A stretch of 64,000 nt of DNA from Candidatus Parcubacteria bacterium. GTDB lineage: Bacteria; Patescibacteriota; Patescibacteriia; UBA1558; GWA2-36-10. Positions 7,243 to 10,863 of this stretch are shown one piece after another. The notes beneath the pieces were generated by a model. That model was not told the DNA's origin. It saw only the letters and a list, made by a program, of their open reading frames with translations, and ran no database searches. The number at the start of each line of letters is the position of its first letter. Position 1 is the first letter of the stretch. The position numbers were made by a program, and so were the translations under genes. The stretch lies in the NCBI GenBank assembly GCA_018664825.1, contig JABJNO010000010.1, positions 8,832-72,831 of the forward strand, written 5' to 3'.

Positions 7243-7794
7243 TTATCCCTTTACTCTTCCCAATTTTTTAAGCTCATCAACTTGTGGCTTTAACTCTGGG
7301 TCTGTCAATAAATTTTTATGAACCATTATATCTCTGGGTATTTTTTTGATTTTTGTTCCTCTAATATCTAAATTGCCTCTTACGACCAGCTTGCGAGGAA
7401 GGCTATCAATATTTGACTCACCAACTTTGAGATCTCCAAAAATATCTAAATTGTCTGGGAAAACTATCTTGGAATCTACATTGAACATCCTAATATCTTC
7501 TCTAAACAATATTCTTTTCTTTGATCTGTCTATTATGACCATTTTTTGATAATAATTTATCTTACCAACATCTCCATCAATCAATAAATCTACCAACATT
7601 CGCTTGGATATTTCTGGGTCAAAAAACATCCTACTTATCTTATCCAGGGCAAATATCAGTCCTGATTTTGTTCCTCTGACTTTTTTCAATTTCTTTGCCA
7701 TCACGTCTTCATCAAGAGATTCCGAAAAATCCCCAAAGCTTCTTTTGACTTCGATAAATTCTTGTTTCAATTGTTCGCAGGTTAATTCTGTCAT
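7243..7794 (-). CDS. Hypothetical protein, LRR-like repeat paralog 1 of 6
   Basis: N-terminal MTELTCEQLKQEF helix. LRR-like LPRKLVVRGNLDIRGTKIKKIPRDI repeats. Family C-terminus ...LGRVKG. Confidence 0.5.
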   Translation of the reverse strand: MTELTCEQLKQEFIEVKRSFGDFSESLDEDVMAKKLKKVRGTKSGLIFALDKISRMFFDPEISKRMLVDLLIDGDVGKINYYQKMVIIDRSKKRILFREDIRMFNVDSKIVFPDNLDIFGDLKVGESNIDSLPRKLVVRGNLDIRGTKIKKIPRDIMVHKNLLTDPELKPQVDELKKLGRVKG

Positions 7795-7818
7795 ATTTTT
7801 TTATTCATCCAAGTCTCC

Positions 7819-8157
7819 CTATAAATCTAAGATGACTTTTCCTTGTATTTTTCCTTCTCTTTTCAACTTACGCGCAGCACCGTTCAATCTTTGATCTATT
7901 TTTATATCTCCATCTACATATAATTCTTCAGGTAAATCCTCTGCTGCCGAATTTTCTAAATCCAGATCACCTTTTATAATAATACGATTATTTTTTCTAT
8001 CTATTTCTGCATTGGCCTTTGTCCAGTTTATAATATCTCCAAAACTTTTAATACCATTTGATCCCACTATCATTCGCCATAATTTTTCCATCAACTGATC
8101 AGCTTCAAACAAATTTTTCCATAAAACTATCATGGAAATACTAAAATCTTTTTTCAA
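7819..8157 (-). CDS. Hypothetical protein, short or truncated member (2 of 6) of the LRR-like paralog family
   Basis: C-terminal ...DLPEELYVDGDIKIDQRLNGAARKLKREGKIQGKVILDL matches the family C-terminal motif. It lacks the N-terminal Cys helix. Confidence 0.4.
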   Translation of the reverse strand: MKKDFSISMIVLWKNLFEADQLMEKLWRMIVGSNGIKSFGDIINWTKANAEIDRKNNRIIIKGDLDLENSAAEDLPEELYVDGDIKIDQRLNGAARKLKREGKIQGKVILDL

Positions 8158-8173
8158 TTTATTTATAACCTTG

Positions 8174-8872
8174 CTATGTACTAAATACTTTACCCTTGAC
8201 TCTGGTATCTGCTGATGCCTTTTCAGCTTCTTCTTTTAGGCTCCTATCTACAAAAATATCCCCTCCCACGCTCAAGCCATCTGGTAACTCAGTAACCGGC
8301 GAACCATGTAGAGTAAAAGAACCATCAATTTCTAAATTATGTGGTAATTTTTTTATCGGGGTATTTCTCATATAAAAACCACCTCCCACTTTTGTCTGAT
8401 TAGGAATCTCGTTGATATTGGTATTGTCTATCAAAAAATCACCACCTACATAAACATGTCCCGGTAATTGCTTTATGGGTGTGTAAGATAAATTCAAATC
8501 ACTCATAACAATTATATCACAAGGGAAGCCTTCAAAATTTGATCGCTTAAGATTTAGATTTTTTTCTATAAATATTTCCCTTTCCTCTGCATCAATCTTT
8601 ACATTTTTTTCTACCCAACCTTCTATAGTCTCCTCATCCCCCCAATCATCATTCACGGCATTTTTCAAAATATCGGTAAATATCTCCTTTATTTTTTCAG
8701 GATCAAATAACAATAAATAAACTTCTTGCCTAGTTTCCAAAAACTTCTGTTTTAAATCCCTAACTCTTTCTATGTCCAAATTATTTGATATAGATTCTAG
8801 GTCACCAAAAAAACTTTGCAGCTCAGCAAATTTATTTTCTACTTGTTGACAAGTTATTTTTTCTAAATTCAT
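8174..8872 (-). CDS. Hypothetical protein, LRR-like repeat paralog 3 of 6
   Basis: MNLEKITCQQVENKF N-terminus. Repeats IKQLPGHVYVGGDFLIDNTNINEIP / IKKLPHNLEIDGSFTLHGSPVTELPDGLSVGGDIFVD. C-terminal TRVKGKVF. Confidence 0.5.
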   Translation of the reverse strand: MNLEKITCQQVENKFAELQSFFGDLESISNNLDIERVRDLKQKFLETRQEVYLLLFDPEKIKEIFTDILKNAVNDDWGDEETIEGWVEKNVKIDAEEREIFIEKNLNLKRSNFEGFPCDIIVMSDLNLSYTPIKQLPGHVYVGGDFLIDNTNINEIPNQTKVGGGFYMRNTPIKKLPHNLEIDGSFTLHGSPVTELPDGLSVGGDIFVDRSLKEEAEKASADTRVKGKVFST

Positions 8873-9483
8873 TCTGTTGTTTCTCTAAAAGTTGCTACTC
8901 CACCTTTTATATTTCCGTTTTTTTGTAATCTTTCTGCTTGAGCTTTTAAATCCTCATTTACATAAATATCTACCCCCACTCTCAGTGTATCTGGTAATTC
9001 AGTAATACCTGTATCAACAATACTCAAACTAGCAGTGACCGTAAGATTTCTTGGTAATTTTTTAATAGCTGTCCGATAAAGATTTAGATTTCCTAACACT
9101 TTGAGATTTTTGGGTAATCTAGTTAGCCTACTAGCTGTCAGGTCTAAATTTGGAATAGTAAATATCAATTGCTTTGTTTCTGGATCCAATTCTGTTCTTT
9201 TCCCAACCCAATCTCTCGTTCTTTCTATTGTCATAGGAGCCGGTTCACTCCTATCAATCTTCATATAATTGGGCCCTGCTTCGTGTAATATCCTTGCAAA
9301 ATCTTCTAGAGACAACTCTTCTAGAGCAAAGAAAATATTCTCTTCTAGTATTTCCCGAGCATCCAGCACCTCTTTGATGTCATCTGCATTGGACATTTTT
9401 TCAAACTTTGCAACAAAATCTTGATAAGCATCTTGTACTCCTTCAAAATCTCGCCTGACTTGTTTACAATCAAATTCTGCCAT
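8869..9483 (-). CDS. Hypothetical protein, LRR-like repeat paralog 4 of 6
   Basis: MAEFDCKQVRRDF N-terminus. Repeats LTRLPKNLKVLGNLNLYRTAIKKLPRNLTVTASLSIVDTGITELPDTLRVGVDIYV. C-terminal NGNIKGGVA. It overlaps its neighbours by 4 and 1 nt, which suggests translational coupling. Confidence 0.5.
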   Translation of the reverse strand: MAEFDCKQVRRDFEGVQDAYQDFVAKFEKMSNADDIKEVLDAREILEENIFFALEELSLEDFARILHEAGPNYMKIDRSEPAPMTIERTRDWVGKRTELDPETKQLIFTIPNLDLTASRLTRLPKNLKVLGNLNLYRTAIKKLPRNLTVTASLSIVDTGITELPDTLRVGVDIYVNEDLKAQAERLQKNGNIKGGVATFRETTE

Positions 9484-10145
9484 TATGGTGCTATTACTAG
9501 AACTTGTCCTTTTATTCGTCCTTGTTGTTTTAAATCATTTAATTCTTTCATATATCTTCTTTTCATGCTCAATTTTACATCACCATTGACCTGCATATCA
9601 TGAGGAAAATATATATTAGCCTTACTACCCAATTTTACTCCGCGTATATCCAGCTCATCCACCATCAACCTATCAGGCATCAAGGCTGTTTCTGCTCCAC
9701 TCAAATCTAAATTCCCAACTTGCAAATTATCTGGTAAAAAAACAGCGTCGCCCTTTACTATCTCAAAATTTCCCAAAACTACTATCCTGCGACCAACTGG
9801 GTCTATATCTGTATTTTCCATCAACCATTTGATAGCATCTTCACGATCTTTTATTTCATCATACTCACCATCTGGAGTGGCCGTACTGGATACTCTGGCA
9901 TTATTGGTTATAAGTAGAGAAAGATTGTCTATTACACCTTCAAAATCTAAGGCCTCAATCAATTCCAAAGTTTTACTGGTCATCTCTATCAATCTTTTGA
10001 CGTGCTTGGCTTTGTTTCTGGTGGATTTCAAATCTTTTAAATCATACTCCTTGGTTAGACTAAGATCCGCCTTAAAACCATCAAAAAACTTTTTTAAAAA
10101 TTCTAATTTTTTATATAACTTTCCACAAAAACTACTATTATACAT
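9483..10145 (-). CDS. Hypothetical protein, LRR-like repeat paralog 5 of 6
   Basis: MYNSSFCGKLYKKLEF N-terminus. C-terminal ...LNDLKQQGRIKGQVLVIAP. Confidence 0.45.
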   Translation of the reverse strand: MYNSSFCGKLYKKLEFLKKFFDGFKADLSLTKEYDLKDLKSTRNKAKHVKRLIEMTSKTLELIEALDFEGVIDNLSLLITNNARVSSTATPDGEYDEIKDREDAIKWLMENTDIDPVGRRIVVLGNFEIVKGDAVFLPDNLQVGNLDLSGAETALMPDRLMVDELDIRGVKLGSKANIYFPHDMQVNGDVKLSMKRRYMKELNDLKQQGRIKGQVLVIAP

Positions 10146-10185
10146 ATCTTTCAGGTTCTTATTGCTTGTTTACTAACCAGCATAA

Positions 10186-10863
10186 TTAAAGCTTGCCATC
10201 ATAACCATAAATAACTACTTGTTTTTTTATTTGCCCTCGACTCCTTAGCTCTTCTGCTCTTTCTTCCAAATTTTTATCCACATGTATACTTCCGCCCACT
10301 ACCAGGTCATCAGGTAATTCTGTAATAAATGTTCCTCTTATATCTAGATTTTCCTCTACTTCCAGTCCTTTTGGTAATTTATGAATATTACTATTGGACA
10401 AATGCAATCTTCCTTTGACATACAGATCATCTGGCAGTTTATACTCCCCTTCTCTTTGAGATAAATCAATATCTACCTGGGCTGTCAATTTTCTTTTTTT
10501 AACATCTACCTTAAAATTTTCTATTATGCCCTGTTTTTGTTCGTCGGTTATAGAAAAACTTTCTTCAAAATCCTCGCCCCAATTATGGTGTAGCTCCACC
10601 AATTTTTTCATATCATCTTTAAACCTATAGGGTAAAAACATTTCATAAATCAAATCCATTTTTACCATCAATTCAAAATGAGCATCGCGAGTTTGCCAAG
10701 AATCATTTTCTTTCTGTACAAATTTTTCTACAGCACTATCAAGTATTGCCTTTTCACCTTTTTTCATAAGAACGACCATACCTCGCATTTCTTTACAGAC
10801 GTCTTCCTTACTTTTGTACAAAAGTTTATTCTGAATCGTGACAAAATCTTTGGCTCTCAACAT
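10186..10863 (-). CDS. Hypothetical protein, LRR-like repeat paralog 6 of 6
   Basis: IHKLPKGLEVEENLDIRGTFITELPDDLVVGGSIHVDKNLEERAEELRSRGQIKKQVVIYG. Confidence 0.5.
   Translation of the reverse strand: MLRAKDFVTIQNKLLYKSKEDVCKEMRGMVVLMKKGEKAILDSAVEKFVQKENDSWQTRDAHFELMVKMDLIYEMFLPYRFKDDMKKLVELHHNWGEDFEESFSITDEQKQGIIENFKVDVKKRKLTAQVDIDLSQREGEYKLPDDLYVKGRLHLSNSNIHKLPKGLEVEENLDIRGTFITELPDDLVVGGSIHVDKNLEERAEELRSRGQIKKQVVIYGYDGKL

What the first reader, a model, noticed from the sequence alone, without database searches (positions are those of the whole stretch)
7243..10863. The LRR-like array and the distant WG-repeat array (52971-54737) share a homologous N-terminal Cys-helix module
Aligned N-termini:
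- LRR paralog 1: TCEQLKQEFIEVKRSFGDFSESLDED.
- WG paralog 2: RCESIKKQLLEVGSLYSMLVESLDD.

C, E, K, E-V and ESLD[DE] are in register, with conservative substitutions elsewhere. Other members of both arrays also begin Mx(3-9)C[EKR]x[ILV]... (MNLEKITCQQV, MAEFDCKQV, MYNSSFCGKL, MTEKCEAIGIV, MTDKCKFALRQL, MIDQCRSIKEKL).

Ten genes in this 64-kb window therefore appear to carry one common N-terminal module fused to two unrelated C-terminal repeat scaffolds. That pattern is typical of modular effector, adaptor or polymorphic families that share a targeting or oligomerisation domain. I know of no described family with this architecture.
Basis: seen in the sequence. Interest (0 to 1): 0.85.

Follow-up and report, generated by a model that had tools for sequence, protein, structure and literature searches.

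The report
Shared Cys-helix hairpin on repeat proteins
Eight small proteins in two gene arrays of an uncultured Patescibacteria (CPR) genome share a previously undescribed 55-residue two-helix N-terminal module that starts with an invariant cysteine, fused either to a leucine-rich-repeat or to a WG-repeat binding domain; the module is real but very rare, and its function is unknown.

Summary
The core observation holds. Eight of the ten genes (A1, A3, A4, A5; B1-B4) carry a homologous N-terminal module. A2 is truncated and A6 has no detectable copy.

Evidence for homology:
- Profile-profile comparison of the two arrays gives 96% probability, E 7.5e-9 and score 43.3. Nulls that keep the hydrophobic/polar pattern give 11.9 +/- 3.5.
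- Each array's HMM finds the other array as its top foreign hits among 3,247 ORFs.

AlphaFold2 predicts an antiparallel two-helix hairpin that starts at the Cys. The motif is C-x2-[LVI]-x3-[FL]-x2-[VLI]-x3-[FY]-x2-[FLI]. It aligns without gaps in 11 sequences from 3 genomes.

The module matches nothing in Pfam, NCBIfam, PADLOC or the PDB. An exhaustive HMM search of 1.84 billion representative proteins found only two further carriers, one with a third kind of LRR.

Both arrays are lineage-specific insertions into a conserved pyrH-PSP1-gap ... pgk-eno cluster. The module-coding regions share no DNA identity, so cassette recombination is unlikely.

The function, probably a common docking or assembly handle, is inferred and not shown. 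This is a genuine orphan domain of moderate interest.

The parts
7243..7794 (-). A1, 183 aa: N-module plus a degenerate LRR and tail
   Evidence: ORF; N11 HMM E 1.9e-25
7615..7794 (-). N-module of A1 (about residues 1-60, Cys6)
   Evidence: Alignments and HMM
7819..8157 (-). A2, 112 aa: truncated array member (middle region, one LRR and tail) with no N-module
   Evidence: ORF; aligns only to the C-terminal part; not hit by the HMM
8174..8872 (-). A3, 232 aa: N-module, two linker helices, LRR solenoid, C-terminal helix and strand
8705..8872 (-). N-module of A3 (residues 1-56; Cys8; helices 8-30 and 34-55)
   Evidence: AF2 secondary structure; HMM E 2.9e-19
8869..9483 (-). A4, 204 aa: N-module plus LRR
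   Evidence: ORF; HMM E 3.6e-18; weak SlrP-LRR local match
9304..9483 (-). N-module of A4 (Cys6)
9483..10145 (-). A5, 220 aa: N-module plus LRR
   Evidence: ORF; HMM E 6e-17
9966..10145 (-). N-module of A5 (Cys7). Its best pairwise match is B4 (z 6.2), not another A protein.
10186..10863 (-). A6, 225 aa: array member with the LRR and tail but no detectable N-module
52971..53405 (-). B1, 144 aa from the ATG at 53405 (an upstream TTG at 53432 is less likely): N-module plus WG repeats
   Evidence: Pfam WG_beta_rep 30.2 bits, cut-off 25.6; HMM E 2.9e-20; same start as P0016
53226..53405 (-). N-module of B1 (Cys5)
53434..53850 (-). B2, 138 aa: N-module plus WG repeats
   Evidence: Pfam 35.3 bits; HMM E 5.8e-20
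53671..53850 (-). N-module of B2 (Cys5)
53856..54296 (-). B3, 146 aa from the ATG at 54296 (alternative ATG at 54323 created by a 13-nt duplication): N-module plus WG repeats
   Evidence: Pfam WG_beta_rep 21.8 bits, below the 25.6 cut-off; HMM E 1.5e-22
54117..54296 (-). N-module of B3 (Cys5)
54333..54737 (-). B4, 134 aa: N-module plus WG repeats. Its start codon overlaps the PSP1 stop by 1 nt.
   Evidence: Pfam 41.5 bits; AF2 pLDDT 84.9
54558..54737 (-). N-module of B4 (residues 1-60; Cys5; helices 2-26 and 32-60)
   Evidence: AF2; HMM E 3.6e-21
5953..7227 (-). Enolase, immediately downstream of array A (15-nt spacer)
   Evidence: 65-76% identical to enolases of Komeilibacteria-type MAGs
10865..12025 (-). 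Phosphoglycerate kinase, immediately upstream of array A. In relatives it lies directly next to enolase.
   Evidence: Synteny
51893..52903 (-). GAPDH, downstream of array B (67-nt spacer)
54737..55615 (-). PSP1-domain protein, upstream of array B. In relative L031 it lies directly next to gap.
   Evidence: Pfam PSP1; synteny

Best explanation
SHOWN. Two tandem arrays encode small proteins in which no signal-peptide-like hydrophobic N-terminus is visible. Eight of them begin with the same homologous module of about 55 residues. It is an antiparallel two-helix hairpin whose first helix starts at an invariant Cys. The motif is M-x(3-6)-C-x2-[LVIA]-x3-[FL]-x2-[VLIT]-x3-[FYC]-x2-[FLI]-x3-h. The module is fused to two unrelated protein-binding scaffolds. 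One is a true LRR beta-solenoid homologous to the Vibrio rod-binding protein FlrP (array A). The other is two WG beta-repeats (array B). In a second genome the module is fused to a third LRR type. The module is an orphan domain, and only three genome sources are known to carry it. Both arrays are lineage-specific insertions into intergenic sites of one conserved housekeeping cluster (pyrH-PSP1|gap ... pgk|eno). They have the host's base composition and are packed tightly between the glycolysis genes on the same strand.

INFERRED. The arrays grew by tandem duplication, and one ancient domain-shuffling event moved the hairpin between scaffolds. The hairpin acts as a common docking or assembly handle. 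It ties a set of diversified binders either to one shared partner or to each other by homotypic pairing, while the variable LRR or WG surfaces bind different targets. In four of the eight window proteins (A1, A4, A5, B2) the invariant Cys is the protein's only cysteine. It sits in a heptad core position at the N-terminus of helix 1. Any disulfide or metal site it forms would therefore have to be intermolecular. The tight packing suggests co-transcription with pgk/eno and gap.
For: Homology:
- hhalign E 7.5e-9, probability 95.8%, score 43.3, against a class-preserving null of 11.9 +/- 3.5.
- Reciprocal top foreign HMM hits among 3,247 ORFs.
- Cys-anchored ungapped score z 6.9.
- The motif is in register without gaps in 11 sequences.

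Structure:
- AF2 of B4 gives helices 2-26 and 32-60, then beta structure, pLDDT 84.9.
- AF2 of A3 gives helices 8-30 and 34-55, then an LRR, pLDDT 90.6.

Scaffolds:
- WG_beta_rep is above the Pfam cut-off in B1, B2 and B4.
- The third fusion type is L062 8235-9590 and 10065-10901.

Orphan status.

Insertion: 19 related genomes have pgk next to eno (directly adjacent in most). L031 has PSP1 next to gap. No A- or B-type genes occur in those loci.

Composition: array GC 0.30-0.36, like the flanking genes.

Lone Cys: sequences.
Against: - No experiment or multimer model bears on docking or oligomerisation.
- The hydrophobic stripe of helix 1 is narrow (a/d positions only). That is enough for an intramolecular hairpin and does not by itself call for a four-helix dimer.
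- No partner gene is conserved next to the arrays.
- No protein carrying the module on an enzymatic or effector domain was found.
- The rest of the source genome could not be searched.
- Cytoplasmic location is inferred only from the absence of a visible signal peptide; no predictor was run.
- Promoter and terminator scans were at chance level and say nothing about co-transcription.
Confidence: 0.5

Rival explanations
1. Polyimmunity-type arrays. The A and B proteins are immunity or decoy binders that neutralise incoming protein toxins. They were duplicated and diversified in tandem. The hairpin is an accessory stabilising or oligomerising element and not a link to any machinery.
For: - The genes are small, show no visible signal peptide, have diverged strongly (16-34% identity in the module) and sit in tandem without a cognate toxin.
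- LRR proteins are a recognised immunity class, and toxin-less polyimmunity loci are described (PMC3482391).
- The same window carries a 2,535-aa Rhs toxin and an Rhs-tip/M15 peptidase gene, so the organism takes part in toxin-mediated conflict.
Against: - No toxin gene is adjacent to either array.
- The window's Rhs toxins begin with signal-peptide-like sequences by eye, at least one carries a cell-wall peptidase domain, and small membrane proteins lie next to them.
- WG repeats were not mentioned in the immunity catalogue ('KWG' had 0 occurrences).
- This reading does not explain why two unrelated scaffolds keep the same N-terminal module with an invariant Cys.
Confidence: 0.2
2. Structural cap shared by descent. 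The hairpin only shields or stabilises the first repeat of the C-terminal domain. It persisted when the C-terminal half of an ancestral gene was replaced. It has no separate targeting or assembly role.
For: - Many LRR domains need N-terminal helical caps, and the weak Foldseek alignments to IpaH/SspH LRR domains span about 250 columns.
- The hydrophobic stripe is narrow and fits intramolecular packing.
- pTM of 0.64-0.79 suggests a reasonably defined single-chain arrangement.
Against: - In A3 two further helices (58-72 and 80-90) lie between the hairpin and the solenoid and are the more likely cap.
- A2 and A6 keep the LRR without the module.
- LRR homologues outside the family lack the module.
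- The same module sits on a beta-rich WG domain with a quite different surface.
- An invariant Cys is not needed for capping.
Confidence: 0.13
3. Leaderless export or targeting signal. The N-terminal hairpin directs the binders to a secretion route or to the cell surface or host interface of this episymbiont-type bacterium. It would be analogous to WXG100/LXG helical hairpins of type VII secretion.
For: - The module sits at the N-terminus, is a helical hairpin of similar size and is shared by otherwise unrelated passengers.
- LRR and WG scaffolds are often extracellular binders. FlrP is exported by Sec (PMC13626733).
Against: - No match to WXG100 or LXG or to any other Pfam family, and no W-x-G turn in the sequences.
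- No secretion ATPase or pilus genes were recognised among the window's ORFs (by eye) or in L061/L062.
- Odd numbers of cysteines, often a single one, are more typical of cytoplasmic proteins.
Confidence: 0.12
4. No homology. The resemblance is what any two amphipathic N-terminal helices in an AT-rich genome would show.
For: - Identities are low (16-34%).
- The conserved positions follow a heptad pattern.
- Long tandem-repeat and coiled-coil proteins also reached low E-values with the profile by summing many weak stretches.
Against: - Nulls that keep the hydrophobic/polar pattern never reach the observed score: 0 of 200 with hhalign, 0 of 5000 and 3 of 5000 in register.
- Each array's HMM finds the other array as its top foreign hits among 3,247 ORFs, including many helical proteins.
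- The Cys is invariant and position +14 is aromatic in 10 of 11 sequences, with no gap needed over 27 residues.
- A search of 1.84 billion proteins returned almost nothing else that matches over the full module at the N-terminus.
Confidence: 0.03

Closest known systems
Vibrio FlrP (PDB 8Z5U chain 0), the LRR protein bound to the rod of the polar flagellar motor
   Different: FlrP has a Sec signal peptide and a short N-terminal head (PMC13626733). It has no Cys-hairpin. The A proteins show no visible signal peptide, and no flagellar genes were recognised in the window.
IpaH / SspH / SlrP / YopM-type bacterial LRR domains
   Different: No NEL ligase domain and no type III secretion context. The scores are far below family thresholds. 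Their helical cap is not related to the Cys-hairpin by any test run here.
Pfam WG_beta_rep (PF14903, 'KWG' repeats)
   Same: B1, B2 and B4 exceed the gathering score, and B3 falls just below it.
   Different: The family is defined by the repeat alone. No N-terminal Cys-hairpin is part of its description, and none was found on any other protein in the 1.84-billion-protein search.
F-box proteins (FBXL / FBXW) and similar modular substrate adaptors (own knowledge)
   Same: The architecture is the same: one small N-terminal helical module joined to alternative repeat scaffolds such as LRR or beta-repeats.
   Different: No sequence match to F-box or to any Pfam family. The module has two helices, not three. 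No cullin/Skp1-like partner is known in bacteria of this group. This is an analogy only.
Effector-associated domains (EADs) and Death-like adaptor domains of bacterial conflict systems (own knowledge)
   Same: Small N-terminal helical modules shared by otherwise unrelated proteins and thought to pair homotypically. In L062 the module-bearing genes lie near a MoxR-like AAA gene, a vWA gene and WD40 genes.
   Different: No Pfam match. No NTPase or effector protein carrying the module was found. The window arrays sit among housekeeping genes.
WXG100 / LXG N-terminal hairpins of type VII secretion
   Same: An N-terminal antiparallel helical hairpin of similar length placed on variable passengers.
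   Different: No Pfam match, no WxG or LxG turn and no EssC-like ATPase nearby.
Imm-LRR proteins and polyimmunity loci of polymorphic toxin systems (PMC3482391)
   Same: Tandem arrays of small, fast-diverging binder proteins without an adjacent toxin. LRR is a listed immunity scaffold.
   Different: No shared N-terminal module is described for these proteins. The link to toxins is untested here.

Membership tests
Pfam WG_beta_rep (PF14903) | HMM score at or above the gathering cut-off of 25.6 bits | tested here: met
   B1 30.2, B2 35.3 and B4 41.5 bits. B3 scores 21.8 bits, just below the cut-off, but is clearly paralogous.
Leucine-rich repeat solenoid (FlrP-like) | Significant sequence similarity to a solved LRR protein | tested here: met
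   A3 vs 8z5u_0: phmmer E 7.3e-19, two stretches.
Leucine-rich repeat solenoid (FlrP-like) | Beta-solenoid fold that superposes on LRR structures | tested here: met
Pfam LRR families (LRR_1, 4, 6, 8 and others) | A Pfam HMM hit | tested here: not met
   No LRR family at E <= 1 for A1-A6. Some distant homologues carry PF23598.
WXG100 / LXG (type VII secretion substrates) | A Pfam WXG100 or LXG match, and a W-x-G or L-x-G turn between the helices | tested here: not met
   No such family in whole-protein or module-only scans. The motif is absent from the aligned sequences.
F-box | A Pfam F-box or F-box-like match | tested here: not met
Effector-associated / Death-like adaptor domains | A Pfam match to an EAD or Death-superfamily model | tested here: not met
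   Of 11 module sequences, no Pfam family is matched by more than 2, and none of those is an EAD or Death family.
Effector-associated / Death-like adaptor domains | The same module is also present on an NTPase core or an effector protein in the same genome | tested here: inconclusive
   None was found among 1.84 billion representatives, but the complete source genome could not be searched.
Polymorphic-toxin immunity proteins (Imm-LRR / polyimmunity locus) | Genomic linkage to a toxin gene, or membership of a known Imm family | tested here: not met
   No toxin gene is adjacent to either array. The Rhs genes lie 9-25 kb away with other small genes beside them. No Imm Pfam family matched.
Polymorphic-toxin immunity proteins (Imm-LRR / polyimmunity locus) | Neutralisation of a toxin | not testable with these tools
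   Requires co-expression assays.
Known anti-phage defence proteins (PADLOC) | A PADLOC HMM match | tested here: not met
   Only one weak hit, at E 0.0086 and 13.7 bits, in one protein.
Bacterial lipoproteins (N-terminal Cys) | A signal peptide with a lipobox immediately before the Cys | tested here: not met
   Only 4-7 mostly polar residues precede the Cys, and there is no hydrophobic stretch. This was judged by inspection.

The most novel reading that the evidence does not exclude
The Cys-hairpin is a Patescibacteria-specific homotypic adaptor with a reactive thiol. It would couple a diversified repertoire of LRR and WG binders to one shared partner or to each other. That would make it a minimal bacterial counterpart of F-box or EAD-type adaptor logic, or of a germline-encoded recognition repertoire, expressed constitutively from within the glycolysis operons of an episymbiont.
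Probability: 0.15. Interest if true: 0.7.

Novelty: new variant of a known kind. Interest (0 to 1): 0.4.

Why it matters
If the hairpin is a common docking or pairing handle, it defines a new small adaptor domain. It would also show that reduced, host-dependent CPR bacteria build families of modular binders by shuffling one handle onto different repeat scaffolds.

The module is short, helical and has a single invariant Cys, so the idea is easy to test biochemically.

Its importance is limited. Only three genome sources carry it among about 15 billion predicted proteins. No partner or enzymatic fusion is known. The organism is uncultured.

The synteny result is a clean example of how novel genes enter streamlined genomes: two independent insertions into one conserved glycolysis and housekeeping cluster.

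Tried and rejected
- Word-indexed protein search with the 11-sequence module alignment found nothing, not even the window's own proteins. With A3 and with P0024 it found only C-terminal LRR relatives without the module.
- The JGI metagenome scan with patterns TC[QE]Q[LV].. and [ML][LF]FDPE.. returned only the same organism (L065, identical A3-A2-A1-eno).
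- The AFDB Foldseek library was unavailable.
- Four high-scoring hits of the exhaustive search matched in 5-11 stretches each. The three that were read (P0015, P0023, P0025) are tandem-repeat proteins whose many weak stretches add up, so they were rejected as members. P0013 (3,802 aa, 10 stretches) was not read and is rejected by analogy.
- A6 as a diverged carrier was rejected: hhalign probability 0.9%.
- Recent gene conversion or cassette recombination between the arrays was rejected: no DNA similarity in the module-coding regions. DNA repeats within each array lie mainly in the C-terminal coding parts; one weaker pair (73% over 48 nt) joins the B1 and B4 starts.
- Recent horizontal acquisition was rejected: array GC and GC3 match the genome.
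- Promoter and terminator scans were at chance level and uninformative.
- The literature search for WG/KWG repeats gave nothing useful.
- A lipoprotein reading of the N-terminal Cys was rejected: no signal peptide or lipobox.

Full report
**What is there.** The window (GC 36%) comes from an uncultured Patescibacteria (CPR) bacterium. Its enolase is 65-76% identical to those of Candidatus Komeilibacteria-type MAGs.

Array A lies on the minus strand at 7243-10863 and holds six genes:
- A1 7243-7794
- A2 7819-8157
- A3 8174-8872
- A4 8869-9483
- A5 9483-10145
- A6 10186-10863

It sits between pgk (10865-12025) and enolase (5953-7227), with spacers of 1 and 15 nt.

Array B lies on the minus strand at 52971-54737 and holds four genes, B1 to B4. 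It sits between the PSP1-domain gene (54737-55615, overlapping B4 by 1 nt) and gap (51893-52903).

B1 and B3 most likely start at internal ATGs (53405 and 54296). That puts the Cys at residue 5 in all four B proteins, and the same starts were called for near-identical proteins in public assemblies.

**Is the shared N-terminus real?** Yes, for eight of the ten genes.
- The first profile-profile comparison of untrimmed N-termini gave E 7e-5 and probability 63%, in register at the Cys.
- With modules trimmed to about 60 residues, A vs B gave E 7.8e-7 (91.7%). With one outside homologue added to A, it gave E 7.5e-9 (95.8%, score 43.3).
I permuted the B alignment columns within hydrophobic and polar classes, which keeps the amphipathic character. 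Those nulls scored 11.9 +/- 3.5 (max 28.0, 0 of 200). The reversed alignment scored 11.4.
- An ungapped, Cys-anchored 27-residue comparison scored 286, against -61 +/- 51 for class-preserving shuffles (0 of 5000). Class-preserving column permutation reached it in 3 of 5000.
- In a database of 3,247 ORFs from the window and 60 other loci, each array's HMM found the other array as its best foreign hits.
- Pairwise Smith-Waterman z-scores across the arrays reach 6.2 (A5-B4). That is higher than A5 scores against its own array.
- A six-frame scan of the window with the final 11-sequence HMM finds exactly eight copies. A2 (truncated, 112 aa) and A6 are not detected, and hhalign of the A6 N-terminus against the profile gives 0.9% probability.

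**Anatomy of the module.** Across 11 sequences from 3 genomes, no gap is needed over 27 residues. The Cys is at position 0. Hydrophobic residues fall at +3, +7, +10, +14 (F or Y in 10 of 11), +17 and +21. Position +11 is never hydrophobic (K or Q in 9 of 11). Position +15 is never hydrophobic (G in 5 of 11).

AlphaFold2 predicts an antiparallel hairpin:
- B4 has helices 2-26 and 32-60, followed by a beta domain (pLDDT 84.9).
- A3 has helices 8-30 and 34-55, then two more helices, an LRR solenoid, a C-terminal helix and a final strand (pLDDT 90.6).

**The C-terminal halves are unrelated.**
- B1, B2 and B4 pass the Pfam WG_beta_rep gathering score, and B3 is just below it.
- FlrP is a Sec-exported beta-solenoid LRR protein that binds the flagellar rod (PMC13626733).
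- Wider homologues of the A-type LRR and its tail lack the hairpin.

**Distribution.** An exhaustive hmmsearch of the 8-sequence profile against 1.84 billion representative proteins returned three kinds of hit:
- The window's own proteins or near-identical variants.
- P0022 (238 aa, E 4e-6), which has an A-type LRR.
- P0024 (451 aa, E 4e-4), which has a different LRR type.

The contig carrying P0024 (L062, GC 29%) holds a second member at 10065-10901. Four further hits matched in 5-11 stretches; the three that were read are tandem-repeat artefacts. A JGI metagenome scan found only the same organism.

The module matches nothing in Pfam, NCBIfam, PADLOC or PDB sequences. Identities among modules are 12-34%, both within and between arrays. 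There is no DNA-level similarity between the module-coding regions. The module is therefore old relative to the arrays, or fast-evolving. It is not maintained by recombination.

**Genomic history.** Nineteen related genomes keep the order orf138-pgk-eno-gpmI-gpmI with pgk next to eno. L031 keeps pyrH-PSP1-gap contiguous, with gap only about 6 kb upstream of orf138-pgk. None of these loci encodes an A- or B-type protein.

Both arrays are therefore lineage-specific insertions at two intergenic sites of one ancestral housekeeping neighbourhood. About 40 kb, including an Rhs toxin locus, now separates the two sites. The base composition of the arrays matches the genome.

In L009 and L014 the pgk|eno spacer holds a small ORF that looks like a GIY-YIG nuclease by eye. 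The site therefore seems prone to insertions.

**How it most likely works.**
- Shown: one orphan hairpin is fused to three kinds of protein-binding repeat scaffold, in small proteins with no visible signal peptide, packed inside housekeeping operons.
- Inferred: the hairpin is a common docking or assembly handle, and the variable scaffolds supply specificity. The invariant and often lone Cys at a helix N-terminus could form an intermolecular disulfide, a metal bridge or an adduct.

I give this reading 0.5. Rivals:
- A polyimmunity-like binder array, 0.2. LRR immunity proteins and toxin-less polyimmunity loci are known (PMC3482391).
- A plain structural cap inherited by descent, 0.13.
- A leaderless export signal, 0.12.
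- No homology, 0.03.

The narrow a/d hydrophobic stripe cautions against assuming a four-helix dimer.

**Verdict.** The modular-architecture reading is supported. 'No described family' is supported. 'Polymorphic' in the recombinational sense is not supported. Function is untested. The module is a new orphan domain used in a familiar way, and very few genomes carry it. Interest is moderate (0.4).

Noticed in passing
window 20303-27910 (-), 28526-29668 (-), with 27951-28523 and 19738-20289: A 2,535-aa Rhs/YD-repeat toxin (SpvB, FG-GAP, Laminin_G_3 and RHS_repeat domains). A 380-aa protein combines what looks by eye like an Rhs-core C-terminus with an M15 D-Ala-D-Ala carboxypeptidase domain. Each is followed by a small protein whose N-terminus looks membrane-anchored and which could be an immunity protein. 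This is a polymorphic-toxin locus in a CPR genome.
   Followed up: partly
window 12600-15200 and 16400-17600: Two islands of about 49% GC in a 36% GC genome. They cover trpS (GC3 0.475), a gene that looks like a PLP-dependent decarboxylase by eye, and a gene that looks like a family-3 glycosyltransferase or nucleoside phosphorylase by eye. They are probably horizontally acquired.
   Followed up: partly
L009 5105-5398 and L014 2758-3048: In two related genomes the pgk|eno spacer holds a 96-97-aa ORF with a GIY-YIG-like motif (recognised by eye). This is the site occupied by array A in the window, so it appears to be an insertion hotspot.
   Followed up: no
window 2768-4345 and 4346-5911 (-): Two adjacent, divergent gpmI paralogues (about 40% identical to each other) lie downstream of enolase. 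The pair is conserved in most of the related genomes whose loci reach that far.
   Followed up: partly
window 54284-54329: A 13-nt duplication (ATGATAGATCAAT) spaced 27 nt apart at the 5' end of B3 creates two in-frame ATG starts, at 54323 and 54296.
   Followed up: partly
L062 189-7799: Next to the two module-bearing genes of the other genome lie a split MoxR-like AAA gene, a 783-aa vWA (CobT_C) protein, and two WD40 proteins with their own helical N-termini. There is also a 392-aa protein with a weak endonuclease match. This gene set resembles NTPase-centred conflict systems.
   Followed up: partly
window 7243-10863; proteins P0007, P0011, P0012: The A proteins end in a helix followed by 'G-x-[IV]-[KQ]-G-x-V'. 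Short LRR proteins from other metagenomes end in '[VI]KG-x-IY[FL]', so the tail belongs to a wider LRR-plus-tail family.
   Followed up: partly
P0021 (81 aa) vs window 8174-8872: A public assembly holds a variant of A3 that is identical for the first 61 residues and then frameshifted. This suggests strain-level decay or an assembly error in the array.
   Followed up: no
P0025 (626 aa, from the representative search): This protein has a hydrophobic N-terminus and repeats a motif of about 22 residues ('LYAQLERLRSEFGDFAEKV') that resembles helix 1 of A1. The first copy even carries a Cys ('LCSQLKQLRNESKGY'). It was treated as chance similarity summed over repeats.
   Followed up: no
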